Of a stretch of 64,000 nt of DNA, positions 2,849 through 52,314 are shown in pieces. Location of the stretch: positions 94,918 through 158,917 of the IMG/VR virus record IMGVR_UViG_3300021256_000062, one strand, 5' to 3'. The translations under genes were made by a program, and so were the position numbers. This DNA comes from a virus. Lineage: Duplodnaviria; Caudoviricetes. The notes below the pieces were generated by a model. It was given only the letters and a program-made list of their open reading frames with translations. It was not told the DNA's origin and did not search any database. Position 1 is the first letter of the stretch. Each line of letters begins with the position of its first letter.

Positions 2849-2948
2849 AAGACAGTGTTCTTTGCTTGGGATTTGAACCCAAAATTGATTTCTTGGAAGG
2901 AAATTGACTTACCGTTTGTCTAGCATTTAGAATTGCTGTAACTGTCTT
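2849..2948 (-). ncRNA. Clamp RNA 1 enclosing a mini tRNA-Gly(TCC)-like cloverleaf
   Basis: AAGACAGT-TACAGCAA ... ACTGTCTT; interior D arm GAC-AAACGGTAA-GTC, anticodon arm ATTTC-CTTCCAA-GAAAT, T arm TTGGG-TTCAAAT-CCCAA; no full acceptor or CCA. Confidence 0.75.
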
Positions 2949-4015: not shown

Positions 4016-4053
4016 ATATACTGATTATCTTTTACAATAATCAAAAATATTAA

Positions 4054-4129
4054 TGGTGGACAGGCTTGGAATCGAACCAAGATATCTAGTTCTTCAGACT
4101 AGCGCACAGACCACATATGCCATCTGTCC
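4054..4129 (-). tRNA. tRNA-Phe(GAA)
   Basis: CTAGT-CTGAAGA-ACTAG, CCA. Confidence 0.9.
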
Positions 4130-4130
4130 A

Positions 4131-4207: not shown

Positions 4208-4213
4208 TTGTAA

Positions 4214-4289: not shown

Positions 4290-4294
4290 TATAT

Positions 4295-4371: not shown

Positions 4372-4377
4372 ATTTAC

Positions 4378-4446
4378 TAGATACATATTATAATCGGACA
4401 AATTTTCAGTTCGTAGATTTTAATAGTAATTTGCTGTTAGTATCTA
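4378..4446 (-). ncRNA. Clamp RNA 2 displaying a Phe(GAA) anticodon stem-loop
   Basis: TAGATAC-TAACAGCAA ... GTATCTA; apical ACGAA-CTGAAAA-TTTGT. Confidence 0.7.
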
Positions 4447-4511
4447 AATGTTCCTAATATTCTTTTAATGATGTATGATAGATTGCAACACAATTGATGA
4501 TTTATTTTTGC

Positions 4512-4636
4512 AAGTCACTTTCTCTATCAATTACTGATACACAATCCTTCATCATACATCCTGCATATTTTTAAATAATTTTCTTCATTGTAGTTGTTCT
4601 TTTAAATATTTATAAATTATTTGCAGTTCGTGACTT
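4512..4636 (-). ncRNA. Clamp RNA 3 (AT-rich interior, no tRNA mimic seen)
   Basis: AAGTCAC-GAACTGCAA ... GTGACTT-G. Confidence 0.55.
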
Positions 4637-4686
4637 AATGTGATTTTGTTTAAAATTGTTCACCAACAACTTTTCATTATTAAATA

Positions 4687-4762
4687 TGGTGAGTCCGACG
4701 AGGTTCGAACTCGTGACCCCATGATTAAAAGTCATGTGCTCTACCAGCTGAGCTACGGACTC
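4687..4762 (-). tRNA. tRNA-Lys(TTT)
   Basis: CATGA-CTTTTAA-TCATG, CCA. Confidence 0.95.
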
Positions 4763-4766
4763 ATCT

Positions 4767-4843
4767 TGGCACACCGTAAGAGATTCGAACTCCTAACTTA
4801 TCGCTTAGAAGGCGATTACTCTAATCCGTTGAGTTAACGGTGT
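4767..4843 (-). tRNA. tRNA-Arg(TCT)
   Basis: ATCGC-CTTCTAA-GCGAT, CCA. Confidence 0.95.
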
Positions 4844-4854
4844 ATTCACATATT

Positions 4855-4883
4855 ATTATACAACATATTTATTTAATTGTCAA
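4855..4883 (-). promoter_or_regulatory. sigmaA-type promoter
   Basis: TTGACA-17-TATAAT. Confidence 0.85.
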
Positions 4884-4921
4884 GTAGGACTAATTTAATA
4901 GCCCTACTTTTATTATTACAA

Positions 4922-6145
4922 TTAAATTAAATAGTGAATATTCTTTCCATAACTTCTCTTAAATACTAAATATTTTATTCCTTTAGAGATTAGAATATTA
5001 TTCTTACATCTATTGTAATTATCCTTATAAGTTGTTACAGCATTCTTATATTCATCTTCATTCTCAAAATCACATCTATCTGGTTGATAGATTGATTCTT
5101 TACGTAATTCACTTGAAACCAATTCATCATAGTCTATATGTAAATCATTAGAATTAATGATATTTAACATCAACTTTGTGTCAAACTGAATATCTTGTGT
5201 ATTAAATCTTATATAGTAACCATCGTAATCATAACAAGCATCTTGTTCACTAAATATATCTAGTCTTAATTTTGAAGTTGTTGTTTGTGTACCATCATTT
5301 AATATTGCATAAACATTGTAATAAACAGGTTCAATATTCACAATATTTAAATCTTTAATGGCTTCTTCAAATGGTATTCCTTGAGATAATTCAAATGATA
5401 TTGCTCTTAAACAATCATAGTTTATATCAACTTTATTTGCGAAATTAATTACTTTAGATATTTCACCATAATATTTAGGTTCTAATTTATCTTCCATATA
5501 TTCTCTAATTTCATCAGCTGTAGGATAATCAAATCTAAAATGATAATGAAATCTACCAGGTCTATTGATTAAGAAATCATTTAAACCATTTAAATCATTA
5601 CATGTTACTACAAATAATTTCTTACTATTTGCAAGACCATCAAATAAAGTTAATAATGTAGTTTGGGAACTTGATGATGAGCCATCTCTATCTTCATCTG
5701 TAAATTTCAAATTACCTCTACCACTTTGAGCTTGTGCAAAAGTTTTATCAAATTCATCAAATAAAACTACACACTCTTGTTCAATTTCAGTTAGGTAATC
5801 AGCTATACCTGGGATATACTTATTAACAACTATAACAGGTAAGTTTTCCTCTAAAGATTTTTTTGCAATTAATTTTGCACAAATTGATTTTCCTATTCCC
5901 TTATCTCCTGATAAAATAACACCAAGATTTCTGTTCATAAGTTTATAGGCATTTAATACCTTATTTACTTTAGATAAATGTGGACCATAAATCTTTTCAT
6001 TAACATCAATCATTGGATAAAGTTGTAAGAAAAATCCAGATAATGGAGAGAATTCTACAGTATAACACTTATTAGGTAATACATCATAAGTTCTCAAATC
6101 ATCATCATAAATTCTGTAAATATTTCCTGTATTTACAATTTTCAA
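4922..6145 (-). CDS. AAA+ ATPase
   Basis: Walker A GDKGIGKS, Walker B VLFDEFDK, TCN, RPGRF. Confidence 0.9.
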   Translation of the reverse strand: MKIVNTGNIYRIYDDDLRTYDVLPNKCYTVEFSPLSGFFLQLYPMIDVNEKIYGPHLSKVNKVLNAYKLMNRNLGVILSGDKGIGKSICAKLIAKKSLEENLPVIVVNKYIPGIADYLTEIEQECVVLFDEFDKTFAQAQSGRGNLKFTDEDRDGSSSSSQTTLLTLFDGLANSKKLFVVTCNDLNGLNDFLINRPGRFHYHFRFDYPTADEIREYMEDKLEPKYYGEISKVINFANKVDINYDCLRAISFELSQGIPFEEAIKDLNIVNIEPVYYNVYAILNDGTQTTTSKLRLDIFSEQDACYDYDGYYIRFNTQDIQFDTKLMLNIINSNDLHIDYDELVSSELRKESIYQPDRCDFENEDEYKNAVTTYKDNYNRCKNNILISKGIKYLVFKRSYGKNIHYLI

Positions 6146-6168
6146 TTAAATCACCCTTTCATTTTTTA

Positions 6169-6245
6169 TGGTGCCATCTCTGGGATTCGAACCCAGACTT
6201 AAGGGCTTTTAAGACCCTTGCCTCTGCCAATTGGGCTAAGGTGGC
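6169..6245 (-). tRNA. tRNA-Leu(TAA), short variable arm
   Basis: AGGGT-CTTAAAA-GCCCT, CCA. Confidence 0.92.
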
Positions 6246-6251
6246 ATTTAT

Positions 6252-6328
6252 TGGTTCGCCAAAGTGGATTTGAACCACTGACCTCTCGATTATCGGTCGA
6301 GTGCTCTAACCAACTGAGCTACTGGCGA
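6252..6328 (-). tRNA. tRNA-Ile(GAT) (C at position 33)
   Basis: CTCGA-CCGATAA-TCGAG, CCA. Confidence 0.9.
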
Positions 6329-6331
6329 ATA

Positions 6332-6460
6332 TGGTACCCACAAAAGGACTTGCACCTAATACTGTATTGCGTTCATCTCGGTGGCCATCTCCAAGATTCA
6401 TCCTCATCTCCTTATTTCAGTTTGCAACCATCCATAAATCAATGTGACTATAACGTGAGC
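6332..6460 (-). ncRNA. Oversized tRNA-like RNA (acceptor, T arm and CCA around a long non-tRNA interior)
   Basis: GCTCACG/TGTGGGT-A-CCA; T-like arm AGG-TGCAAGT-CCT. Confidence 0.45.
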
Positions 6461-6474
6461 ATATATAAGTTTAA

Positions 6475-6564
6475 TGGCGGTGCGTGTAGGATTTGAACCT
6501 ACGGGTGGAGAACCACCGCCGGTTTTCAAGACCGGTGCAATAAACCAGACTCTGCCAACGCACC
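6475..6564 (-). tRNA. tRNA-Ser(TGA)
   Basis: CCGGT-CTTGAAA-ACCGG, long variable arm, G73, CCA. Confidence 0.95.
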
Positions 6565-6571
6565 ATCTATT

Positions 6572-6647
6572 TGGCGACCCCAGTGAGACTTGAACTCACG
6601 ACACCGGCGTGACAGGCCAGCATTATAACCAGCTTAACTATGAGGCC
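6572..6647 (-). tRNA. tRNA-Asp(GTC)
   Basis: CTGGC-CTGTCAC-GCCGG, CCA. Confidence 0.93.
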
Positions 6648-6703
6648 AAAAATAACTTGGTATCTTCCTAACCATGGCTTGTGTAGATACCAGAACCGTA
6701 ACC

Positions 6704-6812
6704 TGGTGGATGAAGACAAGAATTTCACTTGCAAAGACCTTTAATTAACTAGTATACTGTATCAGTCACCATTGTTACAGAATGGCTACTTTTTATAATT
6801 GTATATTCATCC
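6704..6812 (-). ncRNA. Oversized tRNA-like RNA with Tyr(GTA)-type anticodon hairpin
   Basis: GGATGAA/TTCATCC-A-CCA; CCATT-CTGTAAC-AATGG; T-like GCAAG-TGAAATT-CTTGT; no canonical D arm. Confidence 0.5.
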
Positions 6813-6833
6813 ATTTACTAAATATTAAATTAA

Positions 6834-6910
6834 TGGTCGGAGTAGCAGGATTCGAACCTGCGACGTCTAGTTCCCAAAACTAGTGACCTAACCAGCTGGC
6901 CTATACCCCG
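6834..6910 (-). tRNA. tRNA-Pro(TGG)
   Basis: CTAGT-TTTGGGA-ACTAG, CCA. Confidence 0.95.
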
Positions 6911-7119
6911 ATATTATAAAGATTTCCCTGTTTTATATCTCTATCAATCCCAATGACTCATACTACATTTTCCGAAATTTTATAAACACTCTCATCTAAA
7001 CTACTACCAATGCTTAATGGTTCAGTTGTAACGTACTCTCAACGTTATATTACCAACTATATCTGTCTTTATCTTTTTCAACCCATATTTTACAGCCAGG
7101 ACTATAGCTATTTAATTAT

Positions 7120-7205
7120 TGGTGGTTGGGGTAGGATTCGAACCTACGTACCGATTAAGGAACAGATTTACAGTCTGTCGCGTTTAACCACTTCGCTACC
7201 CAACC
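7120..7205 (-). tRNA. tRNA-Tyr(GTA)
   Basis: ACAGA-CTGTAAA-TCTGT, variable arm, CCA. Confidence 0.95.
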
Positions 7206-7218
7206 ATATTATTTATTT

Positions 7219-7295
7219 TGGTGTGATGTGGGAGATTTGAACTCCCGACCCCTTGAGCCACAATCAAGTGTTCTACCAACTGAACTAACACCACC
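7219..7295 (-). tRNA. tRNA-His(GTG) with A73
   Basis: CTTGA-TTGTGGC-TCAAG; G-1 encoded; ACATCAC-A-CCA. Confidence 0.93.
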
Positions 7296-7300
7296 ATGTA

Positions 7301-7376
7301 TGGTGCAGTATACAGGACTTGAACCTATAACCTTTAGTTTGTAAGACTAACACTCTCCCAATTGAGTTAATACTGC
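7301..7376 (-). tRNA. tRNA-Val(TAC)
   Basis: TTAGT-CTTACAA-ACTAA, CCA. Confidence 0.93.
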
Positions 7377-7380
7377 ATAT

Positions 7381-7455
7381 TGGCAGGACCGGAAGGAATC
7401 GAACCTTCATAATTCGGGTCAAAGCCGAATGCACTAACCGTTGTGCTACAGTCCT
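7381..7455 (-). tRNA. tRNA-Gln(TTG)
   Basis: TTCGG-CTTTGAC-CCGAA, CCA. Confidence 0.93.
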
Positions 7456-7462
7456 ATAACTA

Positions 7463-7553
7463 TGGCGGTTGCTGAGGGACTTGAACCCCCGCGGGCTTTC
7501 ACACCCCTATCGCGTTAGCAATGCGACCTCTTCACCAACTTGAGTAAGCAACC
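7463..7553 (-). tRNA. tRNA-Ser(GCT)
   Basis: TCGCA-TTGCTAA-CGCGA, long variable arm, CCA. Confidence 0.92.
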
Positions 7554-7562
7554 ATCAAATAT

Positions 7563-7591
7563 ATTATACAATTATTTGTTTTAAATGTCAA
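7563..7591 (-). promoter_or_regulatory. sigmaA-type promoter
   Basis: TTGACA-17-TATAAT. Confidence 0.85.
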
Positions 7592-7612
7592 CTTTTTTAT
7601 ATTATTTTTTTT

Positions 7613-7688
7613 TGGCACATCCAGATGGATTCGAACCATCAATACCAGGTTCGTAGCCTGGTGGTTTAATCCATTAGCCTATGGATGT
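7613..7688 (-). tRNA. tRNA-Arg(ACG)
   Basis: CCAGG-CTACGAA-CCTGG, CCA. Confidence 0.93.
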
Positions 7689-7692
7689 ATAG

Positions 7693-7767
7693 TGGTACCA
7701 CCTACCAGACTTGAACTGATATTATTCGGGTATGAACCGAACTTCCTAACCATTGAAAGAAAGTGGC
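7693..7767 (-). tRNA. tRNA-Met(CAT), elongator-like
   Basis: TTCGG-TTCATAC-CCGAA, CCA. Confidence 0.8.
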
Positions 7768-7824
7768 ATAAAAAATATCAGTTTTCTTTTTAATTAGTCC
7801 TCTAAAACTGATAAAACCTGAACT

Positions 7825-7901
<77 letters not shown>

Positions 7902-7909
7902 ATATAAGT

Positions 7910-7987
7910 AATCAAACTCAATTGTGGAGGTGATTTAAGGTGAATGTTTTTTGGAGGAAAAAAATATTATTTCAATTGAGTTTGATT
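7910..7987 (-). ncRNA. Hairpin RNA with anti-Shine-Dalgarno-like loop
   Basis: 15 bp inverted repeat AATCAAACTCAATTG/CAATTGAGTTTGATT; loop has TTCCTCC, TTCACCTT, ATCACCTCC. Confidence 0.5.
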
Positions 7988-8062
7988 TGGAGCGGATGAT
8001 GGGAATCGAACCCACATATCCAGCTTGGAAGGCTGGAGTTCTAACCATTGAACTACATCCGC
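7988..8062 (-). tRNA. tRNA-Gly(TCC)
   Basis: CCAGC-CTTCCAA-GCTGG, U73, CCA. Confidence 0.95.
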
Positions 8063-8101
8063 ATTTGAAGGTTTCAAGTCTTATTATACCTACAACTTAT
8101 T

Positions 8102-8178
8102 TGGTGGGGATGGAGGGAGTCGAACCCACACTGTCTAGTTTCTAAAACTAGTTCCTCTGCCAATTGGGATACATCCCC
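8102..8178 (-). tRNA. tRNA-Leu(TAG), short variable arm
   Basis: CTAGT-TTTAGAA-ACTAG, CCA. Confidence 0.92.
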
Positions 8179-8185
8179 AAAATAC

Positions 8186-8302
8186 AAGACTCATTTATCA
8201 TGGGTTTTGCAGGACTTGAACCTGCTACTTTCAAATTAGAAGTTTGACGCTCTACCAAATGAGCTAAAAATCCTAGAATGGAGTATTTGCAGTATGAGTC
8301 TT
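8186..8302 (-). ncRNA. Clamp RNA 4 enclosing a near-complete tRNA-Arg(TCT)-like cloverleaf (8201-8273)
   Basis: AAGACTC-ATACTGCAA ... GAGTCTT-G; GGATTTT/AAAACCC acceptor with one mismatch, TCAAA-CTTCTAA-TTTGA, no discriminator+CCA tail. Confidence 0.8.
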
Positions 8303-8378
<76 letters not shown>

Positions 8379-8531
8379 ATTTTAAGTGTTGATTTTCCTA
8401 GGTTCAACACTAGCTTATAAGCTATCCCACCCATCGGAAGGAGATAAGTCACCACTTTATCTTTCTTTCATTTATCAGATGAACGCTTTATATCTATTAT
8501 AACTGTTCTATAGTAACAGATATAAACTATA

Positions 8532-8607
8532 TGGTGGAGCTAGTCGGGTTCGAACCGACGACTTTCAACTTGCAAAGCTGACACTCTCCCAACTGAGTTA
8601 TAGCCCC
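8532..8607 (-). tRNA. tRNA-Ala(TGC)
   Basis: GGGGCTA start with G3-U70, TCAGC-TTTGCAA-GTTGA, CCA. Confidence 0.95.
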
Positions 8608-8694
8608 AAACATGTCCAAGCTTAAAGTACGAGGACAGAATCCTACTAGAAGATAACTTAATATATTATACAATAATTGTTTTTAATTTTATAC

Positions 8695-8758
8695 AAGACT
8701 CTATTTTGGGTATTATGATTAAAAGTCATAGCCTAAAATAAATTGCGGTATAAGTCTT
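8695..8758 (-). ncRNA. Clamp RNA 5 displaying a Lys(TTT) anticodon stem-loop
   Basis: AAGACT-TATACCGCAA ... AGTCTT-G; TATTTTAGG/CCCAAAATA stem capped by TATGA-CTTTTAA-TCATA. Confidence 0.8.
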
Positions 8759-8792
8759 TTTAAATTGTTCTTTATATTATTTTAAATGATTC

Positions 8793-8898
8793 AAGACACT
8801 TCTTTTTGCGTATACCATTTCGCCACTTAGCACATGCTGCTGAGATAGGATTCGAACCTATAATAATCTAAAAGATTAAGGTTTGCTGTATGTGTCTT
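8793..8898 (-). ncRNA. Clamp RNA 6: YrlA-like permuted tRNA (variable arm, T arm, loop-closed acceptor, D arm)
   Basis: AAGACAC-ATACAGCAA ... GTGTCTT-G; ATAGG-TTCGAAT-CCTAT, CTCAGCA-GCATG-TGCTAAG, TG-GCGAAATGGTATACGC. Confidence 0.8.
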
Positions 8899-8932
8899 TA
8901 TATCAGTAAAATTATTTATTTTATAAGTAATC

Positions 8933-9072
8933 AAGACATTCTTGTTGATTTTAAGTGTGATACCATTACACCACTCCCCTATATAATTAAATATATGGCA
9001 GGGGAGGAATGGATTCGAACCATCATCACTGGAGTTGCAGTCCCTATCATTTAGAATTGCAGTAAATGTCTT
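8933..9072 (-). ncRNA. Clamp RNA 7: circularly permuted tRNA with Cys(GCA) anticodon arm and internal CCA
   Basis: AAGACAT-TTACTGCAA ... ATGTCTT-G; order GGA-CTGCAAC-TCC, GATGG-TTCGAAT-CCATT, CTCCCCT-G-CCA, AT hairpin, AGGGGAG-TG-GTG-TAATGGTAT-CAC. Confidence 0.8.
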
Positions 9073-9081
9073 TATTTTATT

Positions 9082-10713
9082 TTATAACCAAGAAGGTTTA
9101 TCCATCTTTGATATAGTATTTCCAGACCACTTAATTCCAGCTTTAGTGACATTCTCTAAATATGGAATTGAATCATATGTCTTAACATCTAATTCCTTAA
9201 CTAGTGCTAAGAATGGGTCAGTCTCACCATTTAACACCATATTTAAAGTATTAACTGAGAATCCTGATACTAATACAACACCATTTTCATTTTGTGTTAA
9301 TGGAATAGTGTTTGTTCTAGAACATACATTCCAGAATACTAATTTAGGTAATTTATATCCTGCACTAGCATATTTTGTTTGCGCATTTCTAAATACATTA
9401 CTATCACTATTAAAATGATTATAACCATATGAAGAATCAAATTCCATATCTGAAATAATTAAAATTTGTTCAGGCATATCTTCAGGTTTAACCTTACCTT
9501 CAACAGCTGTCTTTAAGATTAAATTGAATACATTCTCAATATTAGTGTTTGAACAATCACTATAACAAAGACAAGTTTGTAATTTAGAATGTAATGATTG
9601 ACACATAGATAAATCTACTAATTTAGCTTGAGATGAGAAAGTAATAAACTTATCTTTAAATGTATCATTTAATCTTTCTGAACAATAAATTGCCAATGCA
9701 GTTGATACATCTAATGCGGTTGTATTACCAGAACCTACTTTTGACGTCATTGAACCTGAACCATCTCTAACAACGATTGTGTTATTTAAACCATCTTTTT
9801 GTTTTAGGTTCTTCCATAATTGTTCTAATGCTTCATCATAATCAGTTAAATGTGAATACCATCCATCACAATTAAAGTATTTAGTAACAATTTCGTGTGG
9901 GAAGTTAACTGAAGAATTAATCTTTACTTCCTTACCATCCTTATCTACACCTACTCTTAATGCAGCTAAGAAATCTCTACGTCTTTCTTCATCGTGTCTT
10001 AAGAAAGCATCCTTATACTTTAAGTTTGCTTTTGATGGAACTTGATTATAATCAATCTTACTCCATTCATTTGCAGATGTATAAGTTTCAATTACCTTTA
10101 AGTATGCTCTTAACTTTGATAAAAGTTGTCTATACTCTTTAGATGTTGCACCAAATGATTTGATGAAAATCTTTGCCAATTTCTTTGTTTTAGGAGATGA
10201 TGCATTTTCAGATGGCATCCACTTAGCTAATAATGAAATTGGTTTGTTATTATTCATATTAGTGAAATCTTGTTTTAATTGACTTAAAACAGTTTGTACC
10301 ATAAAATCTTGATATTCAGTACCAATGAAAACAAATAAGTCATCATATCTACCAAATTCAACTATTTGAGTCTTAATTAAGTCTTTAACAATTTCATCTT
10401 TATTCTTGAAATCTGAAACCTTAATTAAATGATTTAAGGCTACTCTAAATAATCTTCTTTCACCTAATCCTTCTCTTACTCCTCTTACATAGAATAAGAA
10501 TTTTAATAAGTATCTAGCATCACCTTGTTCAGCTAATACTAAATCAATATCCTTACAAATATCAGCATCTGTAAGTTTACGATATGAAGTTACCTTGAAA
10601 TTCATATCTAGTAATGGGTGGAAAGTAGTCTTATATCCCTCCATACCATTTTCAGTAATTGATACATTGTTTTGTACCTTTTTCATAGTTCCATAAAAAT
10701 CCATATTATCCAT
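9082..10713 (-). CDS. DUF2828-family protein (TROVE/Ro60-like helical domain + C-terminal vWA)
   Basis: TENG..., FYVRGVREGLGERRLF, FGRYDDL, LLAKWMPSE, IDYNQVPSKA, MIDAS VRDGSGSM, IISDMEFD, FWNV, VSGFS. Confidence 0.85.
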   Translation of the reverse strand: MDNMDFYGTMKKVQNNVSITENGMEGYKTTFHPLLDMNFKVTSYRKLTDADICKDIDLVLAEQGDARYLLKFLFYVRGVREGLGERRLFRVALNHLIKVSDFKNKDEIVKDLIKTQIVEFGRYDDLFVFIGTEYQDFMVQTVLSQLKQDFTNMNNNKPISLLAKWMPSENASSPKTKKLAKIFIKSFGATSKEYRQLLSKLRAYLKVIETYTSANEWSKIDYNQVPSKANLKYKDAFLRHDEERRRDFLAALRVGVDKDGKEVKINSSVNFPHEIVTKYFNCDGWYSHLTDYDEALEQLWKNLKQKDGLNNTIVVRDGSGSMTSKVGSGNTTALDVSTALAIYCSERLNDTFKDKFITFSSQAKLVDLSMCQSLHSKLQTCLCYSDCSNTNIENVFNLILKTAVEGKVKPEDMPEQILIISDMEFDSSYGYNHFNSDSNVFRNAQTKYASAGYKLPKLVFWNVCSRTNTIPLTQNENGVVLVSGFSVNTLNMVLNGETDPFLALVKELDVKTYDSIPYLENVTKAGIKWSGNTISKMDKPSWL

Positions 10714-10720
10714 CCTTTCT

Positions 10721-10782
10721 AGACACTACCATGTATATCCAACAACCATTAGACTTTACACTATTTGTTGCTGTATGTGTCT
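10721..10782 (-). promoter_or_regulatory. Clamp RNA 8 in the 5' leader of the DUF2828 gene, abutting its RBS
   Basis: AGACAC-ATACAGCAA ... GTGTCT immediately followed by AGAAAGG-ATG. Confidence 0.75.
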
Positions 10783-10802
10783 TATGTATTTTTACAAGTT
10801 CT

Positions 10803-10831
10803 ATTATACCATTATTTAATTACTTTGTCAA
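10803..10831 (-). promoter_or_regulatory. sigmaA-type promoter of the DUF2828/clamp-RNA operon
   Basis: TTGACA-17-TATAAT. Confidence 0.85.
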
Positions 10832-10864
10832 CCCCTTAAAATTGACTAATTAATTTTTTATAAT

Positions 10865-12030
10865 TAAGATGTCCATGTAATACCTACTCATAGGTGTTAA
10901 CAACTCCTTAGGACTGAAGGGGAAGTGGTTTACATCCTTCGTATACTCCTCAAAGTATACCCGCTATTAATTAACTAAATTAAGGCTCAATATTATCTAT
11001 GGATAATATTGGAATAACTTGTGCTATTCTTTTACGCACTTAACCGCACGATTTATCTGTCGCCATCAAGGTTTATGGGTGCGACCCTGAGTTTGCTCTC
11101 TTCTACGCTGTATTCAGACTTCGCACTTATGGTAGCGAGGCACCAATAATTTTAACTGAACAAGGGTCGTTGTATTTCACATTCAGACCCTCAAAACTGT
11201 CAAGTGAATGATATTCTAGGTGTCATTCCCACTATTAATTTGTATTCAACAAGATACTCATCTAAGAGTACCTTGTGTTTTTGAATGTTTTCAGGCTAAC
11301 ATACAACCTTTCGCTAATCTAATAGCACTTTGTGAGGCTCAACCTCACTTGTCTTGAATAATAATTTGGTTGGACTTGAACCAACAATGGCTTTTAACCG
11401 ATAGGCTATGTGTTGCCAATCCCTATCTCATCGTTTCACCCATAAGGCATCTTTTTATTGGATTGAACGCTTGTGATTTCCCTCATTAATCTACAAATTA
11501 TTATTTTATATCAAGAGTTCCCTTTGCTAACGTGTCAGGTGGGTAGACCTATAATGTCGCAGCTCACATCTGCTAGACATTTACTTTTCGAACTGCTTAA
11601 GTCAGTTATTCCTACTTCGCAACTCAGTCCATTACGCTGTTTAATTTTTTCTACATTATAGGCCAAACGGGTTTAAATGCTACTTATGGTTCTCACATAA
11701 TCTTTCCGAAACTAAGTCGGTGCTTCGCATACTAGGAATAGTAAACATAATGTAAACTATTACGCTATTTGATGTATATCCCACATGATTAGGAGTTCTC
11801 ATTTAAATTGTAGTCACTATATAGTTTTCCTTCTAAGATTTCATTTTATATAGCGAAAAAATCAAATCCGCTAGTGTGTGATTAAAACCACATCCACCGC
11901 CACCTTATTTTTCTAAATAAGGAAAATATTTGCTCTTATTCTATGTTCTTTATATCGAGCTAACTTTTAGGAGTTTTTCATCCAATATATTTCAAGGACT
12001 AAAGTTAATTGAAATAATTAAGTTTCTCTA
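10865..12030 (-). ncRNA. Large (~1.15 kb) structured ncRNA candidate (GOLLD/ROOL-like class, family unassigned); ends approximate
   Basis: No credible ORF, raised GC, many hairpins and long-range complementarities, embedded tRNA-elbow domain, TGTATAAT -10 at ~12043-12050. Confidence 0.7.
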
Positions 12031-12060
12031 TTGAGATATTATATTATACAATATTTATTT

Positions 12061-12714
12061 TTAATTTTGTCTATAGGCATATAAGTCATCACCTAGATAT
12101 AATTCCTTACCATCATAACCAGAAAGAAAATGACCTCTTCCATCTAATGATAGACATTCTTCTACTATGGCATCAGTATCTAGACCAATAGTTCCATCTT
12201 TAATTAATCTTCTAACTTGTTCTTGTCCAAAATTAGATACAAACCATTGATAAGGGTCTCCTGCATTTTCAACTAAATATGCAGTATATTGTTCTTTTGC
12301 ATCATCTAAATCAACATCATCATTTAAAATAGGATATTCTTCATCTTCATCATCTGAATCATAATGAATATCATCACCTCTAATGAATCCATTTTGTAAT
12401 AATTCTTGAATAAGTTCATCTTCTTCCATTTCATCTACATAGTATTCCATGTCTTCTTGTAGAGCTTCTTCAAACCAATTCTCATTATCTAATGCATTTT
12501 CAACAATCCAATCTTGGAATGATGGAGTAAATGCTTCTAATCCCATTTCATCTATTGAGTTTTCAATATCATTATATGCAGCGTCATCGGCTTCTGAATC
12601 AGTATATACAGCATATTCTTGGTCACCATATTCAAAATGGTCTTCATCATATCCTTCAACGATGTCTTCAACATCACATTCTAAAAATTTTGCCAATTCT
12701 TCAATCTTTTCCAT
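12061..12714 (-). CDS. Highly acidic hypothetical protein
   Basis: 217 aa, D/E rich, own promoter at 12744-12771 (16 nt spacer). Confidence 0.75.
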   Translation of the reverse strand: MEKIEELAKFLECDVEDIVEGYDEDHFEYGDQEYAVYTDSEADDAAYNDIENSIDEMGLEAFTPSFQDWIVENALDNENWFEEALQEDMEYYVDEMEEDELIQELLQNGFIRGDDIHYDSDDEDEEYPILNDDVDLDDAKEQYTAYLVENAGDPYQWFVSNFGQEQVRRLIKDGTIGLDTDAIVEECLSLDGRGHFLSGYDGKELYLGDDLYAYRQN

Positions 12715-12785
12715 AAATCATACCTCTTTCTTAAGATAATTCCATTATACCATTAAAAATTGATTTGTCAATACTCTTGATATAA

Positions 12786-15725
12786 TTATTTTAAATCTTT
12801 ATCTAAAATTATATCATCATCAGTTAAATCATCTAAATCTAGATAATCATCAACATCAATTTCTTCAATTTCATCATCATCTTCATCTTTAATAATTTTA
12901 ACATTATTTAAATCATAATTATAAATTAAAGTACCATCAATATCATCATTGTACATTGAAATCTCTAAAGTATTACCTTCAGTAGATAGTATGATATCTG
13001 AACTTCCAATATAATCTTCTAATTTTCTCATTAATTCATCATAGAATTCATCATAATCATAAAATTCCCAACCATCTAAATATCTGATTGCCTTTTCTAC
13101 ATTATCATTAAATTTATTTTGTGCATAATTTCTTTCAATTCTTTTTTGTTTCTCTTGGTCATAAGTCTTTATAACTAACACAGGGAACTTTGTATCCCAT
13201 CCAAATAAATCCCCAGCTACCATCATTCTATGAAGACCCTCTTGTCCTGGATAATATGATAAATCAAGAACTGCAATAGGGAATTTCTTCTTCTTATCAG
13301 TGATAACTGTCTTAAGATAATCCAATGTCTTCTTATCATATTCTCTTTGTTGTTTTAAGTCGTTTGCAGTAACTTTCTTATGTTTCTTACTACTGAACAT
13401 ATCTGCACAAGCCTCATAATATTCTTGTGGAGACATTTGAACTATTTCACCAACTAAATTCTTTTTATTCTTATAATAATCAACATCATTACCTAATAAT
13501 AAATCTTTCCATGAACCAGTGGTACCTGTAGTTGATGTATCAAATATATCACTACCATTTACATCTCCTGTACCATAGTCAAAATCATCACTTTCCTTTA
13601 ATTTAGTTCTAAAGTTTTCAATGAACTCTAAACGTTTAGGATTTCCACCTAATACATCAAATAATTTAAAGTTTTTAATGTCTTGATATCTTGAATAGAT
13701 ATATCCATCATCAGTTTTATATTTAAAGTTATAATCATCTCCTACCACATCATATATCTCAAATTCATTAGTATGGTATGAATCAGGACAATAAATAGCA
13801 CATACTTGGTTCTTATCAAAATCATTTACTAAATCAGTACTTAAGTAACCATTTTGATATGCTGCATTTTTCATATCAGTATGAACACAATCATATGCAT
13901 TTGCAACTAAATATAAATTACCTTCAATATATAATCTTTGTGGTTCAGTTTTTGATAATAGGAAATTCTTAACTTGATATGGACTTTCAAACATATATAC
14001 ATCAAAAGCATCTTCATCAAATTTAACCATTTCAGTAAGTGATTCTTTTTTATCCCAATATGAATAGGCAACAGCTAATCTTTGTTTTTGATTTGGATAT
14101 TCTTTTTCAGTTGCACTCATAAATCTTGATATGAAATCTTTTTTAGTTTCATTATCTTTAGGATAAATTTCCAATAATTTACTTTCATTTATGTTATTAC
14201 TATTACTTGGATTCTTATTATCTATTAATTTTATTTGGTTAGGGTAAAAGGTAATGATTTGAGTATCAATACCTGCATTCATCATAGAATTGTATAAAAT
14301 AATTCCATCATAATCTCCCTCGCCTTGAACAGCGTCTATTACATCATAATATGATGTATCATTACTAAAATCATAAGCACCTAATAATGTGAAATACAAA
14401 TCTGGTGTATTTATTCCAAATTCATTGACTATATCTAATTCATTTTCAAAATAATCTTCACCATTGTCGTGTGCTTCTACAAAGTCCCATAACTTATCAT
14501 AGTCTATAATAAAAGGCTTTTCTAAATTTAGATAACATTCTTTTATCTTATTTCCATAGCCTAAAGAGAATTGTTTATTTGGAGTAAAAAATGTAGCATA
14601 TTTAAAAACATCGAAATCTTTATTTGTGGAATGATAACAAACTAATAATCTACCTTGATTATCTCTTACTTTACTATTCTTAAAAAACTCTACTTGCTCA
14701 TTACTAAGTGGGTTTCCTTCGCTATCTACTTCTTGTGATAAGTCTTCATTAAGTTCTTCATTTACAACACAATTATCAAAATCAACCAAACCATAAGTAA
14801 TAACACCACCTTCATCAGCCTTAATGCCGTCATATCCTAGAGATTGAATTAATACATAAAATGGGTATTCTGATGTTATATCGTAAATGTAATTTGAACT
14901 TTCTAACCTAAAACCAAATTGTGAAAGGAATTGTTTTAATTGTGTAGGTGTCATCTCAATTAACTTACAAAAGTTAAGAAATTCTTTGCTGTATTTACCT
15001 TTTACATTCCATATAGATGAACCTATATACCCTACATCTAGCAATTCACATTTAGAAAAATCTATATCTTTACTAAAGACCTTATTACCATATTCTTGAG
15101 CATATTTTTTATTTGGTGTAAACCAAGTAAGTCTATCTTTAGAATTAATTAATTTATCACTATCTTGACCATGATAGACAAGTTCTTCATCTAAACTTGT
15201 ATGTTCACCTACTATGTCAAAGTATCTATCTTCCCACTCATCAAATTGTTTTTCTAACTCATCATAATCTATTTCAGGTATTTCAGTTCTAACAGGTTTT
15301 TTTATCCATCCAGTATATAGAGAATAAACACCATTTGATTTAGCTGGTTGGTTTACATCTTCTACATATAATTCAACTTCTCTACCCTTTACTTTTATTT
15401 CATATTTACTGTTAAATAATGATTTATAGGCATTACAAAGTAATTGCATTATCTTTATGTCATCAGTAGTTCCTAAATCTGCTACTATATGTAAATCAAT
15501 ATCAGACATGTCAGTATAGTTATAATTTGCACTTGAACCTAATAATCTTATATCAACTACATCAAGAGTTAATCCATCTTCTTTTAGGTCATCTAAAAAA
15601 CTATCAGCTATATCTAATAATCTTTCTTTTACATCATCTCTTAATTCATCATCTTCATTCCATAATTTAGGATTAAGTGTATCATTAACTTTTATTTCTT
15701 CATTTAAATTTTTATCTATTTTCAT
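12786..15725 (-). CDS. Polyvalent protein: N-half of a nucleotidyltransferase + 2 ART-PolyVal-like + unknown module + ParB-like domain
   Basis: LNPKLW, GSSANYNY..SDIDLH, ELYVED, GVYS..W; YHG/YHS..FT...A..YG..GYDGI; EGLHR; LxE[ESD] linkers. Confidence 0.75.
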   Translation of the reverse strand: MKIDKNLNEEIKVNDTLNPKLWNEDDELRDDVKERLLDIADSFLDDLKEDGLTLDVVDIRLLGSSANYNYTDMSDIDLHIVADLGTTDDIKIMQLLCNAYKSLFNSKYEIKVKGREVELYVEDVNQPAKSNGVYSLYTGWIKKPVRTEIPEIDYDELEKQFDEWEDRYFDIVGEHTSLDEELVYHGQDSDKLINSKDRLTWFTPNKKYAQEYGNKVFSKDIDFSKCELLDVGYIGSSIWNVKGKYSKEFLNFCKLIEMTPTQLKQFLSQFGFRLESSNYIYDITSEYPFYVLIQSLGYDGIKADEGGVITYGLVDFDNCVVNEELNEDLSQEVDSEGNPLSNEQVEFFKNSKVRDNQGRLLVCYHSTNKDFDVFKYATFFTPNKQFSLGYGNKIKECYLNLEKPFIIDYDKLWDFVEAHDNGEDYFENELDIVNEFGINTPDLYFTLLGAYDFSNDTSYYDVIDAVQGEGDYDGIILYNSMMNAGIDTQIITFYPNQIKLIDNKNPSNSNNINESKLLEIYPKDNETKKDFISRFMSATEKEYPNQKQRLAVAYSYWDKKESLTEMVKFDEDAFDVYMFESPYQVKNFLLSKTEPQRLYIEGNLYLVANAYDCVHTDMKNAAYQNGYLSTDLVNDFDKNQVCAIYCPDSYHTNEFEIYDVVGDDYNFKYKTDDGYIYSRYQDIKNFKLFDVLGGNPKRLEFIENFRTKLKESDDFDYGTGDVNGSDIFDTSTTGTTGSWKDLLLGNDVDYYKNKKNLVGEIVQMSPQEYYEACADMFSSKKHKKVTANDLKQQREYDKKTLDYLKTVITDKKKKFPIAVLDLSYYPGQEGLHRMMVAGDLFGWDTKFPVLVIKTYDQEKQKRIERNYAQNKFNDNVEKAIRYLDGWEFYDYDEFYDELMRKLEDYIGSSDIILSTEGNTLEISMYNDDIDGTLIYNYDLNNVKIIKDEDDDEIEEIDVDDYLDLDDLTDDDIILDKDLK

Positions 15726-49664: not shown

Positions 49665-49815
49665 AGTCTCTATTAAATCATATAGTACTTACTTAAGAGC
49701 CAAACTCGACTGAGATTCTAGGTTATGCTAGTTTGCTCAGTCTCTTCCTCATTAAAAATTTGTTATCAATCTTCTTTTAAATATTTTTAAATAATTAAGA
49801 TTGCTGTGTGAGACT
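49665..49815 (-). ncRNA. Clamp RNA 9, between the RNA ligase and HPr-like genes
   Basis: AGTCTC-ACACAGCAA ... GAGACT-AG; internal GACTGAG/CTCAGTC hairpin; TGTATAAT just upstream. Confidence 0.6.
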
Positions 49816-49848: not shown

Positions 49849-51039
49849 TTATAAATTATGTTTCATTAAATATTCTGGAGATACTGCCTTGAAGGATAGC
49901 TTACCATCCTTACCTCTAAATACAATACCCTCTCTTAGAACATCCTTATTAACAACTGACTTATCAGTTGCAATCTTTAGTAACTCGTCAACTGTATCTG
50001 GTAGAATAAAGTTCTCATCTAGAATTGGAACCCAAGGGATTGGTGTATCCCATGACTCAAGTAACTTTTTAGCTGTTATTGAATCCCATCTACCATTTTT
50101 AGAATCCTTGAAGTTGAATGCTGCAAAGTGATGACCCTTTAACTTTAAAGGATTACCTTGCCATCCTTCTCCATATGATTCTCCCTGGATACATACCCAA
50201 TCTAAATCTTTATTCTCATTAAGATATTTTTTAAGTTGATTTTCTACATCATATCTAGTTGCCATTTCCCAATAGATATTATCATTACCTTGGTATGTAT
50301 GTTCATTTGAATCATTCCATAATCTAATATTTCTAGAGCATACATAGAATTCAAATTTATTCTTTCCCTTTCTTACTAGTAAGAAAGTAGTAGATGTACC
50401 ATCAATCTTTTCAGTTGCAATTAATGGTGTCTTATCTTGTAGTAAGTAAGGCATATTCTGAATTCTCTCTTCATCAGTTTTAGATACAAATTCAGTTGGG
50501 AATGCTTTCTTCATATCCTTATGACCTTTTTTCATTCCTCTTAAGAATAACCATCTAAAGAATTTATATCTCATTAACCATTTAACTAACTTATTATTAA
50601 AGAACTTCTTATGTTTAGCTTTGTACTGTTTAATAGCTTGTTCTCTAACATCAGATTTTCTATAGTTATCTTCTACTACTGAATATGTTACTCCTAACTT
50701 TTCAGTTAAATCAGTTAATATTTCAGTATTAGGGTCTATACCTAATACATCTAAAGGTAAAATTAGTCCTTGTGATATAACATTAAATTTACCTAATTTA
50801 TAAGTTTTAATCTTATAATGTTTATTAGCAAGGAATTCAAATGCAGGATTTGATTCTGGTACCTTTGAATCAATTTCAAAGAATGCACATTTATCTCCTG
50901 GTTTAAATTCTCCTTTTTTAGTAATTAATGTCCAACCTAGTACATGTGCTAATTCAATATTATCTGCACCTTCAATAGGTTCTATTGAATCAACTACTTG
51001 AACATAGGCCAACATTCTTTTTCCATCTTTATCTAACAA
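49849..51039 (-). CDS. RNA ligase (DRB0094/Rnl2-like)
   Basis: IEPIEGADNIE, FFEIDS, SQGL, KTDEERIQN, TEKIDGTS, QGE, REGIV, SFKAVS. Confidence 0.9.
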   Translation of the reverse strand: MLDKDGKRMLAYVQVVDSIEPIEGADNIELAHVLGWTLITKKGEFKPGDKCAFFEIDSKVPESNPAFEFLANKHYKIKTYKLGKFNVISQGLILPLDVLGIDPNTEILTDLTEKLGVTYSVVEDNYRKSDVREQAIKQYKAKHKKFFNNKLVKWLMRYKFFRWLFLRGMKKGHKDMKKAFPTEFVSKTDEERIQNMPYLLQDKTPLIATEKIDGTSTTFLLVRKGKNKFEFYVCSRNIRLWNDSNEHTYQGNDNIYWEMATRYDVENQLKKYLNENKDLDWVCIQGESYGEGWQGNPLKLKGHHFAAFNFKDSKNGRWDSITAKKLLESWDTPIPWVPILDENFILPDTVDELLKIATDKSVVNKDVLREGIVFRGKDGKLSFKAVSPEYLMKHNL

Positions 51040-51041: not shown

Positions 51042-51266
51042 TTAATCATCTCCTTTTAATTCTTTAATTCTTCTATTGATATACCAAATGGCTTTTTGTA
51101 AGTCTTCAACTTCCTTATCCTTATTTTTCTTACCAGCTCTAGATATATACTTAATTGCATTACCTAGACAAAAACCTAATTGTTTATCTTCAATATAATC
51201 AATAACTTCAATCTTACCATCAGTATAGTGTGATGGATGATTTACAACATCATTTTTAGTATCCAT
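51042..51266 (-). CDS. DUF3310 family protein
   Basis: VNHPSHY, GNAIKYISRAGKK, EDLQKAIWY. Confidence 0.88.
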   Translation of the reverse strand: MDTKNDVVNHPSHYTDGKIEVIDYIEDKQLGFCLGNAIKYISRAGKKNKDKEVEDLQKAIWYINRRIKELKGDD

Positions 51267-52314
51267 TTATTGTTCTATACCTTTCTCCATATTCTAAAAA
51301 TTTTTCCACAAACTCATCTGATTCAGAATGTTTATCACATTCACTAAGTATCTCAAGATACCATCCAAGATGTTCTCCTAATAGGTTCATATCTTTTCTT
51401 TTACTCTTGGATGAATCTTTCCAAGCTTCTAGTGGTCTCATATGGTAATTAATTAAAATTGCCATATTGTACTTATCTTCATCAGTAAATTCATTTACAA
51501 AACCTAAATGATTGACATCTTTAAAATTAGTGAAATCTATATCTAAAGATAAATAGGCACCGACATTTGCATGTTGGTAATAATGTGCAATTTCAGTTAT
51601 TTCACCTTTTCTATTTTTATAAATCTTACAAAACTTTTTACCAATATCATGAAATAATATTGCATACTTTAGATAGATATCGAAATTGTGAAATTCATAG
51701 TTATTTATAAAATAATCTAGTGCTGCAAACATATGTAAATCAATATCCATATTATGATGTGGATTATCATGTGGTTCTTGACCAACAAAATAATTTACAG
51801 CATTTAAATATGGAACTCTTGGTTTAGTTGTATATTCAACTTTAATTTTATTCCATCCCTCACCATAAACAGGTAATTCAAAATTTTGTAACATTCTATC
51901 AATAATATTTGAAGGAACTTTTCTATCCCTATTTTCATTTCTTTGTTTACAAGTATCAATATTAGTATATACTACAATACATTCTTTTTCAAATTCATTC
52001 TCTACATCTCTATCCAAGTTATTAAGTAACTCCACTCTATGTTTCCTATTAATGTTTGTAGCATCATATACTATTAAATTATACTCGTGAGTATTTAAGA
52101 AATTAACAGTTCTATCATACATAATTTTGAATACCTGTTCTGGATTGTCTTGAATACTTGCATCACCATATAACTCTTCTCTAATTTCATCTGAAGATAA
52201 TATTAATGATTCGCCATGTACTAATTTACAACTTATATAGTTATCAACAATTCTTTTTGCAAAAGTAGATTTACCTGAACCAGGTAAACCCACTAACATT
52301 ACAAAATGATTCAT
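51256..52314 (-). CDS. Polynucleotide kinase (AAA_33) fused to an HD domain
   Basis: GLPGSGKST, SSDEIR, DATN, RN..R.R.VP; HDIGK, HANVG, YHM, D. Confidence 0.85.
   Translation of the reverse strand: MNHFVMLVGLPGSGKSTFAKRIVDNYISCKLVHGESLILSSDEIREELYGDASIQDNPEQVFKIMYDRTVNFLNTHEYNLIVYDATNINRKHRVELLNNLDRDVENEFEKECIVVYTNIDTCKQRNENRDRKVPSNIIDRMLQNFELPVYGEGWNKIKVEYTTKPRVPYLNAVNYFVGQEPHDNPHHNMDIDLHMFAALDYFINNYEFHNFDIYLKYAILFHDIGKKFCKIYKNRKGEITEIAHYYQHANVGAYLSLDIDFTNFKDVNHLGFVNEFTDEDKYNMAILINYHMRPLEAWKDSSKSKRKDMNLLGEHLGWYLEILSECDKHSESDEFVEKFLEYGERYRTINGY

What the first reader, a model, noticed from the sequence alone, without database searches (positions are those of the whole stretch)
8695..8758. 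Isolated anticodon stem-loops (Lys-UUU here, Phe-GAA at 4378-4446) presented on clamp stems: anticodon-nuclease decoys?
Seen: clamp 5 is a long rod capped by TATGA-CTTTTAA-TCATA, nearly identical to the anticodon arm of the phage's own tRNA-Lys (CATGA-CTTTTAA-TCATG), with no D, T or acceptor parts. Clamp 2 is capped by ACGAA-CTGAAAA-TTTGT. Known: tRNA-Lys(UUU) is the target of anti-phage anticodon nucleases such as PrrC and PARIS AriB. Inference: protein-stabilised decoys that titrate tRNA-cleaving defences, or baits for anticodon-recognising enzymes.
Basis: partly seen in the sequence, partly recalled or inferred. Interest (0 to 1): 0.8.

Follow-up and report, generated by a model that had tools for sequence, protein, structure and literature searches.

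The report
Anticodon-loop mimics on phage Y-like RNAs
Two small hairpin RNAs in this phage's tRNA region are real members of a widespread RNA family that travels with a Ro60-like ring protein, and they display a bare copy of a tRNA anticodon arm (lysine, phenylalanine), which makes them plausible baits for enzymes that read or cut tRNA anticodons.

Summary
At 8695-8758 (minus strand) a 6-bp closing stem and the unpaired motif ACNGCAA enclose a rod capped by a 5-bp stem and the loop CUUUUAA. This cap matches 15 of 17 bases of the phage's own tRNA-Lys anticodon arm, and the two differences form one compensatory pair. The element at 4377-4447 is built the same way with a Phe-type loop.

Nine such "clamps" lie in the window. 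The neighbouring DUF2828 protein folds like Ro60, so these are Y-RNA analogues.

In 220 unique clamps from 74 of 80 related viral loci, C/U-U-NNN-R-A loops on 5-bp stems occur 48 times against 2.6 in shuffles. CUUUUAA occurs 17 times against 0.06, on at least seven different stems. The window and each of four close relatives carry exactly one clamped Lys-UUU loop, but in three different clamp positions.

A tRNA-repair cassette lies in the window (RNA ligase, kinase, a ninth clamp). The displayed anticodons overlap the published targets of the PARIS nuclease AriB. This fits a bait, decoy or sensor role, but no binding or cleavage has been shown.

The scan has reported this RNA family before on other genomes. 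It matches no Rfam model.

The parts
8695..8758 (-). Clamp E4 (the finding): P1 stem 8758-8753 with 8700-8695, ACCGCAA at 8749-8743, second helix, and a Lys-UUU anticodon-arm mimic at 8730-8714 (loop 8725-8719)
4377..4447 (-).
10721..10782 (-). Clamp E1 in the 5' leader of the DUF2828 gene; ends a few bases before the ribosome-binding site; 6-nt apical loop that is not anticodon-like
10803..10831 (-). Consensus promoter (12 of 12 hexamer matches, extended -10) directly upstream of E1
9082..10713 (-). DUF2828 + DUF7788 (vWA) protein, 543 aa, Ro60-like fold; the presumed protein partner of the clamps
8933..9072 (-). Clamp E2: circularly permuted tRNA-like cargo (T arm, 3' acceptor strand with G-CCA, linker, 5' acceptor strand, D arm)
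8793..8898 (-). Clamp E3: YrlA-like cargo (hairpin, T arm, closed acceptor stem, D arm)
8186..8302 (-). Clamp E5 enclosing a whole tRNA-like sequence (ARAGORN calls tRNA-Arg UCU at 8201-8273); orthologues carry UGU or UUU
4511..4637 (-). Clamp E6 (handle one mismatch from the pattern), AU-rich 102-nt cargo
2849..2948 (-). Clamp E8: anticodon-type arm (loop CUUCCAA) plus a T arm; weak Rfam tRNA hit at 2858-2929
49665..49815 (-). Clamp E9 (handle one mismatch from the pattern), immediately downstream of the RNA ligase gene
49849..51039 (-). RNA ligase (PHA02142 OB domain + PF09414)
51256..52314 (-). P-loop kinase (AAA_33 / KTI12-like), candidate polynucleotide kinase of an RNA-repair cassette
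4687..4762 (-). The phage's own tRNA-Lys(UUU), whose anticodon arm E4 copies
4054..4129 (-). The phage's own tRNA-Phe(GAA), loop CUGAAGA (G37), which differs from the E7 loop

Best explanation
E4 and E7 are small non-coding RNAs of a Y-RNA-like family. A 6-9 bp stem closes the RNA. Together with the adjacent single-stranded ACNGCAA it forms a constant 'handle', which is the presumed docking site for the Ro60-like DUF2828 ring protein encoded next door. The variable part is a rod that ends in a faithful anticodon arm: a 5-bp stem and a 7-nt C-U-NNN-A-A loop. One base on the 5' side and 2-4 bases on the 3' side separate this arm from the next helix, much as nucleotide 26 and the variable loop do in a tRNA. 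That much is shown or strongly supported (about 0.85-0.9). Inferred: the particle presents the anticodon arm to a factor that recognises tRNA anticodon arms, most likely a host tRNA-cutting defence nuclease. It would then act as a competitive bait (decoy or sponge), or as a cleavable sensor that links tRNA attack to the phage's RNA-repair enzymes. The confidence given is for the whole statement, including this inferred function.
For: The family is real. The handle pattern occurs at 7 exact places in the window, all on the gene strand inside the tRNA/DUF2828 region, and nowhere else in the 158,917-bp genome. In 80 viral loci with a DUF2828 gene it occurs only on the gene strand. A strict clamp finder gives 284 clamps forward against 8 on the reverse strand, in 74 of 80 loci. 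The protein model's 13 best PDB matches are all Ro60/TROVE over the full length (E from 2e-8 to 3e-5). The D-x-S-x-S metal site of the vWA domain is invariant. Anticodon mimicry is conserved. In 220 unique cargos, Y-U-NNN-R-A loops on 5-bp stems occur 48 times against 2.6 in shuffles (maximum 7) and 0 in the reverse complement. CUUUUAA occurs 17 times against 0.06. In short cargos the 7-mer occurs 20 times where 1.05 is expected, and 14 of those 20 are flanked by 5 pairs, against 63 of 681 in the loci overall. At least seven different stems carry the same loop. 23 of 74 loci have a clamped Lys loop and 40 of 74 have some anticodon-type loop. The window and four close relatives each have exactly one clamped Lys-UUU loop, but in three different clamp positions. 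Context. The window holds an RNA ligase, a P-loop kinase and a ninth clamp. Relatives have Tpt1 or RNA ligase genes beside DUF2828, and Listeria phage LP-125 has RtcB and an RNA ligase. AriB of PARIS cleaves tRNA-Lys(UUU), Thr(UGU), Asn(GUU) and Thr(CGU) in the anticodon stem after U36-A-A-U-C (PMC12409363). The clamps display UUU, GUU and UGU, and E4 reads U-A-A-U-C-A at that place. The same paper raises competition by over-expressed viral tRNAs as a possibility. A Ro60-like protein (gp130) of phage Bas63, which the paper places in Felixounavirus, is encoded directly upstream of that phage's tRNA genes and counters the Ppl defence (PMC11482910). Felix O1 has a DUF2828 homologue in the same position, followed by four clamps.
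Against: Folding energies of E4 and E7 are not better than those of shuffles. Only 31 of 129 short clamps carry an anticodon-type cap, and the rest carry other hairpins. Some leader clamps swap the Lys loop for loops that are not anticodon-like. Bas63 gp130 alone, without phage RNAs, protected T7 from Ppl, so the protein can act without these RNAs. That gp130 is a DUF2828 homologue is my inference, not checked. The displayed anticodons are mostly NNU or NNA followed by A-A, which AT-rich composition, or shared t6A/i6A modification determinants, would also favour. The hosts and their defence nucleases are unknown. The stems of the mimics are AU-rich and differ from the phages' own tRNA-Lys stems. 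A nuclease that reads the stem might therefore ignore them.
Confidence: 0.42

Rival explanations
1. Adaptor or tether, as for classical Y RNAs. The anticodon arm recruits a friendly tRNA-binding enzyme to the Ro60-like ring, or regulates it, rather than engaging a host nuclease. Candidates are the phage RNA ligase and kinase, lysyl-tRNA synthetase, or a position-34/37 modification enzyme.
For: Y RNAs tether Ro60 to effectors, and YrlA mimics tRNA and is a substrate of tRNA enzymes (PMC4201824). A clamp sits directly after the RNA ligase gene. Repair genes neighbour DUF2828 in relatives. Most displayed anticodons end in U36 or A36 followed by A37-A38. From general knowledge, that is the context of t6A and i6A modification enzymes.
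Against: No partner is identified. The predominance of Lys-UUU over all other anticodons is not predicted by a general modification-enzyme model.
Confidence: 0.25
2. The loop is read by the DUF2828 protein itself. The anticodon-like cap is a second contact for the ring. The RNAs then serve as storage or autoregulatory operators that set the amount of free protein, with no third party involved.
For: A clamp lies in the gene's own leader next to the ribosome-binding site, in the window and in relatives. In L010, L096, L098, L026, L027 and L049 that leader clamp carries the Lys loop.
Against: Leader clamps of close relatives carry loops that are not anticodon-like (window E1, L094). Cargos range from bare hairpins to whole tRNAs, while the handle is the only constant part. 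This argues that the handle, not the loop, is the protein's site.
Confidence: 0.15
3. Evolutionary debris or processing punctuation. The caps are leftovers of tRNA genes that were trapped between clamp stems, and the clamps merely guide cutting of the polycistronic tRNA transcript.
For: The clamps lie among tRNA genes. Some enclose whole tRNAs or tRNA halves. E4 is nearly identical to the phage's own tRNA-Lys arm.
Against: The same loop sits on at least seven unrelated stems with full pairing. The one-Lys-loop-per-phage pattern persists while its position changes. Clamps occur next to DUF2828 in phages with few or no neighbouring tRNA genes, such as Staphylococcus phage 6ec and Enterococcus phage A2.
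Confidence: 0.06

Closest known systems
Ro60 (Rsr) with Y RNAs, especially bacterial and mycobacteriophage YrlA / YrlB (Chen et al. 2014, PMC4201824)
   Same: A ring protein with a TROVE-like fold plus a vWA domain is encoded next to small RNAs on the same strand. The ends of each RNA form a stem, with a short conserved motif on the 5' side. The variable module mimics tRNA. E2 and E3 have the YrlA order: hairpin, T arm, closed acceptor stem, D arm.
   Different: Pfam assigns the protein to DUF2828/DUF7788, not TROVE. The handle motif is ACNGCAA, not the published GNCGAAN0-1G. No Rfam model, YrlA included, matches at E up to 10. There are up to ten RNAs per phage. A cargo that is only an anticodon arm, the one tRNA part that YrlA replaces with the Ro-binding stem, is not described there.
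Dictyostelium Class I RNAs (Rfam RF01414; Kjellin et al. 2021, PMC7919456; search pattern in PMC5054030)
   Same: Short RNAs closed by a 6-bp covarying stem, followed on the 5' side by a conserved unpaired motif ending in ACAGCAA, with a variable remainder. The published pattern is a stem, then CCTTACAGCAA, then up to 120 nt, then the 3' stem plus TG.
   Different: They are eukaryotic and described as confined to dictyostelids. The spacing between stem and motif is about two bases longer. No anticodon-like cargo is reported. The known binder is an RRM protein. The Rfam model does not hit the window. Homology is an open lead, not a result.
Phage tRNAs that defeat tRNA-cutting defences (T5 tRNA-Lys/Thr/Asn against PARIS AriB: PMC11464382, PMC12409363)
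   Same: The same anticodons are involved (UUU, UGU, GUU). The RNAs are phage-encoded and sit in tRNA clusters. The authors raise the possibility that over-expressed viral tRNAs compete for the nuclease.
   Different: Those are complete, decoding tRNAs that escape cleavage through changes near the cut site. E4 and E7 cannot be aminoacylated or decode, and they keep the target-like sequence.
Anticodon-arm mimicry in mRNA operators (E. coli thrS leader bound by ThrRS; recalled from general knowledge, not checked here)
   Same: A hairpin that copies a tRNA anticodon arm is used as a protein-binding site, in some cases in a 5' leader next to the ribosome-binding site.
   Different: That is a single cis-acting operator for a synthetase. 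There is no clamp handle, no Ro60-like partner and no multi-copy family.

Membership tests
Y RNA / Ro60 ribonucleoprotein | A Ro60 (TROVE + vWA) protein is encoded nearby on the same strand | tested here: met
   Met at fold level only. The 13 best Foldseek PDB matches are all full-length Ro60/TROVE. The Pfam TROVE model does not match; DUF2828 and DUF7788 do. The vWA metal-site residues are invariant.
Y RNA / Ro60 ribonucleoprotein | The RNA ends pair into a stem that carries a conserved protein-binding motif, and the rest of the RNA is variable | tested here: met
   P1 is 98% paired and 4 of its 7 pairs covary. ACNGCAA is invariant in 15 of 15 aligned members. It is strand-specific next to the gene in 74 of 80 loci.
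Y RNA / Ro60 ribonucleoprotein | The RNA is physically bound by the Ro60 protein | not testable with these tools
   Needs immunoprecipitation or a gel-shift assay.
YrlA (Rfam RF02553) | Match to the covariance model, and the Rsr motif GNCGAAN0-1G near the 5' end | tested here: not met
   No YrlA hit at E up to 1 over 1-14000, nor at E up to 10 over 8680-9090. The motif here is ACNGCAA.
tRNA | Cloverleaf with acceptor, D, anticodon and T arms | tested here: not met
   ARAGORN and Rfam make no tRNA call at 8695-8758 or 4377-4447. The cargo is only 42 and 46 nt.
tRNA anticodon arm (mimicry, not membership) | A 5-bp stem and a 7-nt loop with pyrimidine 32, U33, purine 37 and A38 | tested here: met
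   E4 and E7 read directly. E4 matches the phage's own tRNA-Lys arm at 15 of 17 bases. The pattern is enriched 18-fold over shuffles in homologues.
Dictyostelium Class I RNA (Rfam RF01414) | Match to the covariance model; a 6-bp terminal stem plus an 11-nt motif ending in ACAGCAA | tested here: inconclusive
   The core motif and the architecture agree with the published pattern. The Rfam model gives no hit and the spacing differs.
Decoy or bait for anticodon nucleases | Bound or cut by the nuclease, and protects the cognate tRNA or the phage | not testable with these tools
   Only circumstantial: overlap of the displayed anticodons with AriB targets and the repair-gene context.

The most novel reading that the evidence does not exclude
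The Ro60-like ring and its clamp RNAs form a 'bait rack'. A constant handle lets the phage mount exchangeable tRNA parts: anticodon arm alone, anticodon plus T arm, whole tRNA, or permuted tRNA. The bare Lys-UUU arm is a dedicated inhibitor or trip-wire for host nucleases that attack the anticodon arm of tRNA-Lys. When the bait is cut, the ring is freed, or its mRNA leader is opened, and the phage's ligase and kinase repair pathway is engaged. Anticodon swaps between near-identical relatives would then record an arms race with nucleases of different specificity.
Probability: 0.3. Interest if true: 0.85.

Novelty: new variant of a known kind. Interest (0 to 1): 0.7.

Why it matters
tRNA-cutting nucleases (PrrC, PARIS and others) are a major layer of bacterial immunity. 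The known phage answers are repair enzymes and resistant tRNA copies. A protein-held RNA that shows only the targeted anticodon arm would be a third kind of answer. It would also give the long-puzzling bacterial and phage Ro60/Y-RNA particles a concrete job.

The family is large. More than 7,900 protein relatives were scored, and 701 deposited phage genomes carry the gene. These include culturable phages of Salmonella/E. coli (Felix O1), Listeria, Staphylococcus, Enterococcus, Bacillus and Mycobacterium. The idea can therefore be tested directly.

The shared 'stem + ACAGCAA' handle also offers a lead to the unexplained Class I RNAs of social amoebae.

Tried and rejected
- Thermodynamic support: E4 and E7 do not fold better than dinucleotide shuffles, so energy alone cannot carry the claim.
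- The bare CUUUUAA 7-mer is common in this AT-rich window (51 copies), so it was rejected as evidence by itself.
- Rfam: no YrlA, Class I or other family fits the clamps.
- A single-protein scan of viral contigs found nothing. The alignment-based scan worked.
- Nucleotide search of deposited phages found only short pieces of the gene. The close relatives came from metagenome contigs. One look-up returned no DNA.
- Loop-focused divergence between near-identical orthologues. L012 and L013 differ at 2 of 66 bases, both in the loop. E8 orthologues vary at 3 of 7 loop columns against 10 of 98 other columns. E5 orthologues vary at 2 of 7 loop columns. There are too few independent events for a test, so this is reported only as suggestive.
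- The 100% pairing of the cap helix in alignment A2 is partly by construction, because members were chosen for a paired stem.
- Literature search for 'DUF2828' gave no functional study.
- Tpt1 (PF01885) is absent from this genome, although it is present in relatives.

Full report
WHAT IS THERE

The window is part of a 158,917-bp viral record. Between 2858 and 8607 the minus strand carries 28 tRNA genes and a tmRNA.

Read on the minus strand, the finding at 8695-8758 has four parts. There is a 6-bp closing stem (8758-8753 with 8700-8695), the unpaired heptamer ACCGCAA (8749-8743), a second helix, and a cap (8730-8714) made of a 5-bp stem and the loop CUUUUAA.

The phage's own tRNA-Lys has the same loop, and its stem differs by one compensatory pair. 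A search for that 17-mer with up to two mismatches finds only the tRNA and this element (expected 0.07).

The second element (4377-4447) has the same layout, with the cap ACGAA / CUGAAAA / UUUGU. Neither element contains D, T or acceptor parts.

Folding energies alone are unremarkable (z = -1.7 and -1.0). The bare 7-mer is common in this AT-rich DNA. The case therefore rests on context and comparison.

THE CLAMP FAMILY

All the elements share a fixed-spacing handle: a stem beginning A-G-A-Y, four bases, then ACNGCAA.

- The pattern matches exactly at seven places in the window, all on the minus strand between 2933 and 10782, and two further copies have one mismatch.
- In the whole genome there are seven matches on that strand, none on the other, and none for the reversed control.
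- The nine elements have different cargos. One sits in the leader of the DUF2828 gene behind a perfect promoter. Two are circularly permuted, YrlA-like tRNA mimics. One encloses a whole tRNA-like sequence. One carries an anticodon arm plus a T arm. One follows the RNA ligase gene. The remaining three are an AU-rich 102-nt cargo (E6) and the two bare anticodon-arm rods of this finding.

THE PROTEIN

The 543-aa ORF at 9082-10713 matches the Pfam families DUF2828 and DUF7788. It has thousands of relatives. An AlphaFold model built on 24 sequences (pLDDT 75) finds Ro60/TROVE structures as its 13 best PDB matches, aligned over the whole length. These include the Ro60 of Thermus phage phiLo and Deinococcus Rsr. 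The metal-site residues of the vWA domain are invariant. The clamps are therefore best read as Y-RNA analogues of a divergent Ro60.

COMPARATIVE TEST OF THE ANTICODON CLAIM

- I fetched 80 viral loci that encode relatives of the protein. The handle pattern occurs in most of them, only on the gene strand, mostly just before or just after the gene.
- A strict finder gives 284 clamps against 8 on the control strand, in 74 of 80 loci, with 220 unique sequences. Cargo length peaks at 30-50 nt, with a second peak near 100 nt.
- In these cargos, hairpins with a 5-bp stem and a 7-nt loop are 2.6-fold more frequent than in shuffles. Apart from T-loops, the commonest loops are anticodon-type. C/U-U-NNN-R-A occurs 48 times against 2.6 (maximum 7 in 50 shuffles) and 0 in the reverse complement. 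CUUUUAA occurs 17 times against 0.06.
- Among 129 short clamps, 31 are anticodon arm only. These comprise Lys-UUU (14, on seven stems), Ser-UGA (7, on four stems), and then GUU, CAU, GCU, GAA and GCC types.
- A count that does not presuppose pairing: the 7-mer occurs 20 times in 4,880 nt of short cargo (1.05 expected), and 14 of those 20 are flanked by five pairs, against 9% in the loci overall.
- An alignment of 15 Lys-type clamps shows an invariant ACAGCAA and loop, and covarying P1, P2 and cap helices. One base on the 5' side and 2-4 bases on the 3' side lie between the cap and P2.

CLOSE RELATIVES

Contigs whose protein is 74-80% identical share orthologous clamps that differ in their loops.

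- The E5-type clamp carries UCU here, UGU in two relatives and UUU in one.
- The E8-type clamp carries UCC or GCU.
- The leader clamp carries the Lys loop in three relatives, but loops that are not anticodon-like here and in a fourth.
- The window and each of the four relatives has exactly one clamped Lys-UUU loop, in three different clamp positions.
- L012 and L013 differ at two of 66 bases, both in the loop, which turns UUU into GUU.
- These points suggest that the displayed anticodon is what selection acts on. The events are too few for statistics.

BREADTH

- tblastn finds the protein in 701 deposited phage genomes.
- Clamps with the same handle flank the gene in Felix O1, Bacillus PK-3 (including a Lys-type cap), Listeria LP-125, Staphylococcus 6ec, Enterococcus A2 and mycobacteriophage Kingsolomon (including a Ser-GCU cap).
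- In 80 loci from prokaryotic assemblies, 58 carry clamps, again with anticodon-type caps. Many of these contigs are probably phage or prophage; I did not check.

FUNCTION

Shown: the conserved structure and the linkage to the protein gene. Everything beyond that is inferred.

Points that favour a role in the conflict over tRNA integrity:
- The window encodes an RNA ligase and a P-loop kinase, with a clamp right behind the ligase gene.
- Relatives place Tpt1 or RNA ligase genes next to the gene, and Listeria phages place RtcB and an RNA ligase there.
- Bacterial Ro60 and YrlA sit in an RNA-repair operon that is induced by damaged tRNA (PMC7790460, abstract seen).
- PARIS AriB cleaves tRNA-Lys(UUU), Thr(UGU), Asn(GUU) and Thr(CGU) in the anticodon stem after U36-A-A-U-C. 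The first three anticodons are among those displayed, and E4 has that very sequence.
- A Ro60-like protein of phage Bas63, encoded directly upstream of its tRNA genes, counters the Ppl defence.

Points against:
- That protein worked without phage RNAs.
- Most short clamps do not show anticodon arms.
- Composition and shared modification determinants could bias the anticodon list.
- The hosts are unknown.

I put the bait reading (decoy or sensor) at about 0.4, an adaptor for a friendly tRNA enzyme at 0.25, recognition by the ring itself or autoregulation at 0.15, and debris at about 0.05.

COMPARISON WITH KNOWN SYSTEMS

The system works like Ro60 with Y RNAs, and E2 and E3 have the YrlA architecture. 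It fails the sequence-level membership tests: there is no Pfam TROVE match, no Rfam YrlA match, and the handle motif is different.

The handle resembles that of Dictyostelium Class I RNAs. Their published search pattern is a 6-bp stem followed by CCTTACAGCAA. The Rfam model does not match, so this stays a lead.

What this report adds:
- a quantitative test of the anticodon-loop claim;
- the one-Lys-loop-per-phage pattern with positional turnover;
- the repair cassette with a ninth clamp;
- the overlap with the AriB target set.

VERDICT

This is a new variant of a known kind of ribonucleoprotein, of high interest because it is widespread and directly testable.

Noticed in passing
window 10865-12030 (minus strand): About 1.15 kb without ORFs between the DUF2828 promoter and the next gene. 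It is GC-richer than its flanks and visibly structured. No Rfam family matches except a weak tRNA hit at 11361-11500, which needs an insertion of about 70 nt. It may be a large ornate non-coding RNA or an intron-bearing tRNA.
   Followed up: no
window 4054-4129 (minus strand): The phage's own tRNA-Phe has the loop CUGAAGA (G37), whereas the clamp E7 shows CUGAAAA. If the host tRNA-Phe has A37, the mimic would copy the host's loop and the functional phage tRNA would be the variant.
   Followed up: partly
window 8201-8273 inside clamp 8186-8302: This tRNA-Arg(UCU) call is a second copy (the other is at 4767-4843). It lies inside a clamp and has an A-C mismatch in the acceptor stem. It is probably a tRNA-shaped Y-like RNA rather than a decoding tRNA.
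   Followed up: partly
L094:11166-11285 and L013:11611-11676: Clamped anticodon loops with a non-U base at position 33 (CGUUUAA, CCGUUAA). This is unusual for decoding tRNAs and consistent with display rather than decoding.
   Followed up: partly
window 49849-53513 (minus strand): A possible RNA-repair cassette: an RNA ligase with an N-terminal OB domain, an AAA_33/KTI12-type kinase, and a weak metallophosphoesterase match at 52869-53513. An HPr-like ORF at 49314-49592 lies below the ninth clamp.
   Followed up: partly
window 12786-15725 (minus strand): A 979-aa protein combining a nucleotidyltransferase domain with an ADP-ribosyltransferase of the polyvalent-protein type, two genes upstream of the DUF2828 operon.
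   Followed up: no
L094:9012-9090: The leader clamp of this close relative keeps the same cap stem as its relatives, but the loop reads AUGGUAC. This resembles the D-loop motif of the permuted tRNA mimics, so clamps may also display D-arm-like hairpins.
   Followed up: no
L010:3759-3834 and L096:17223-17298: ARAGORN calls a tRNA with anticodon UCA (reads UGA) in two related phages. This could be a suppressor tRNA.
   Followed up: no
window 3034-3413 (minus strand): A phage-encoded tmRNA lies within the tRNA array (tag ending ...APRAYAFA). A similar tmRNA occurs in relatives L094 and L096.
   Followed up: no
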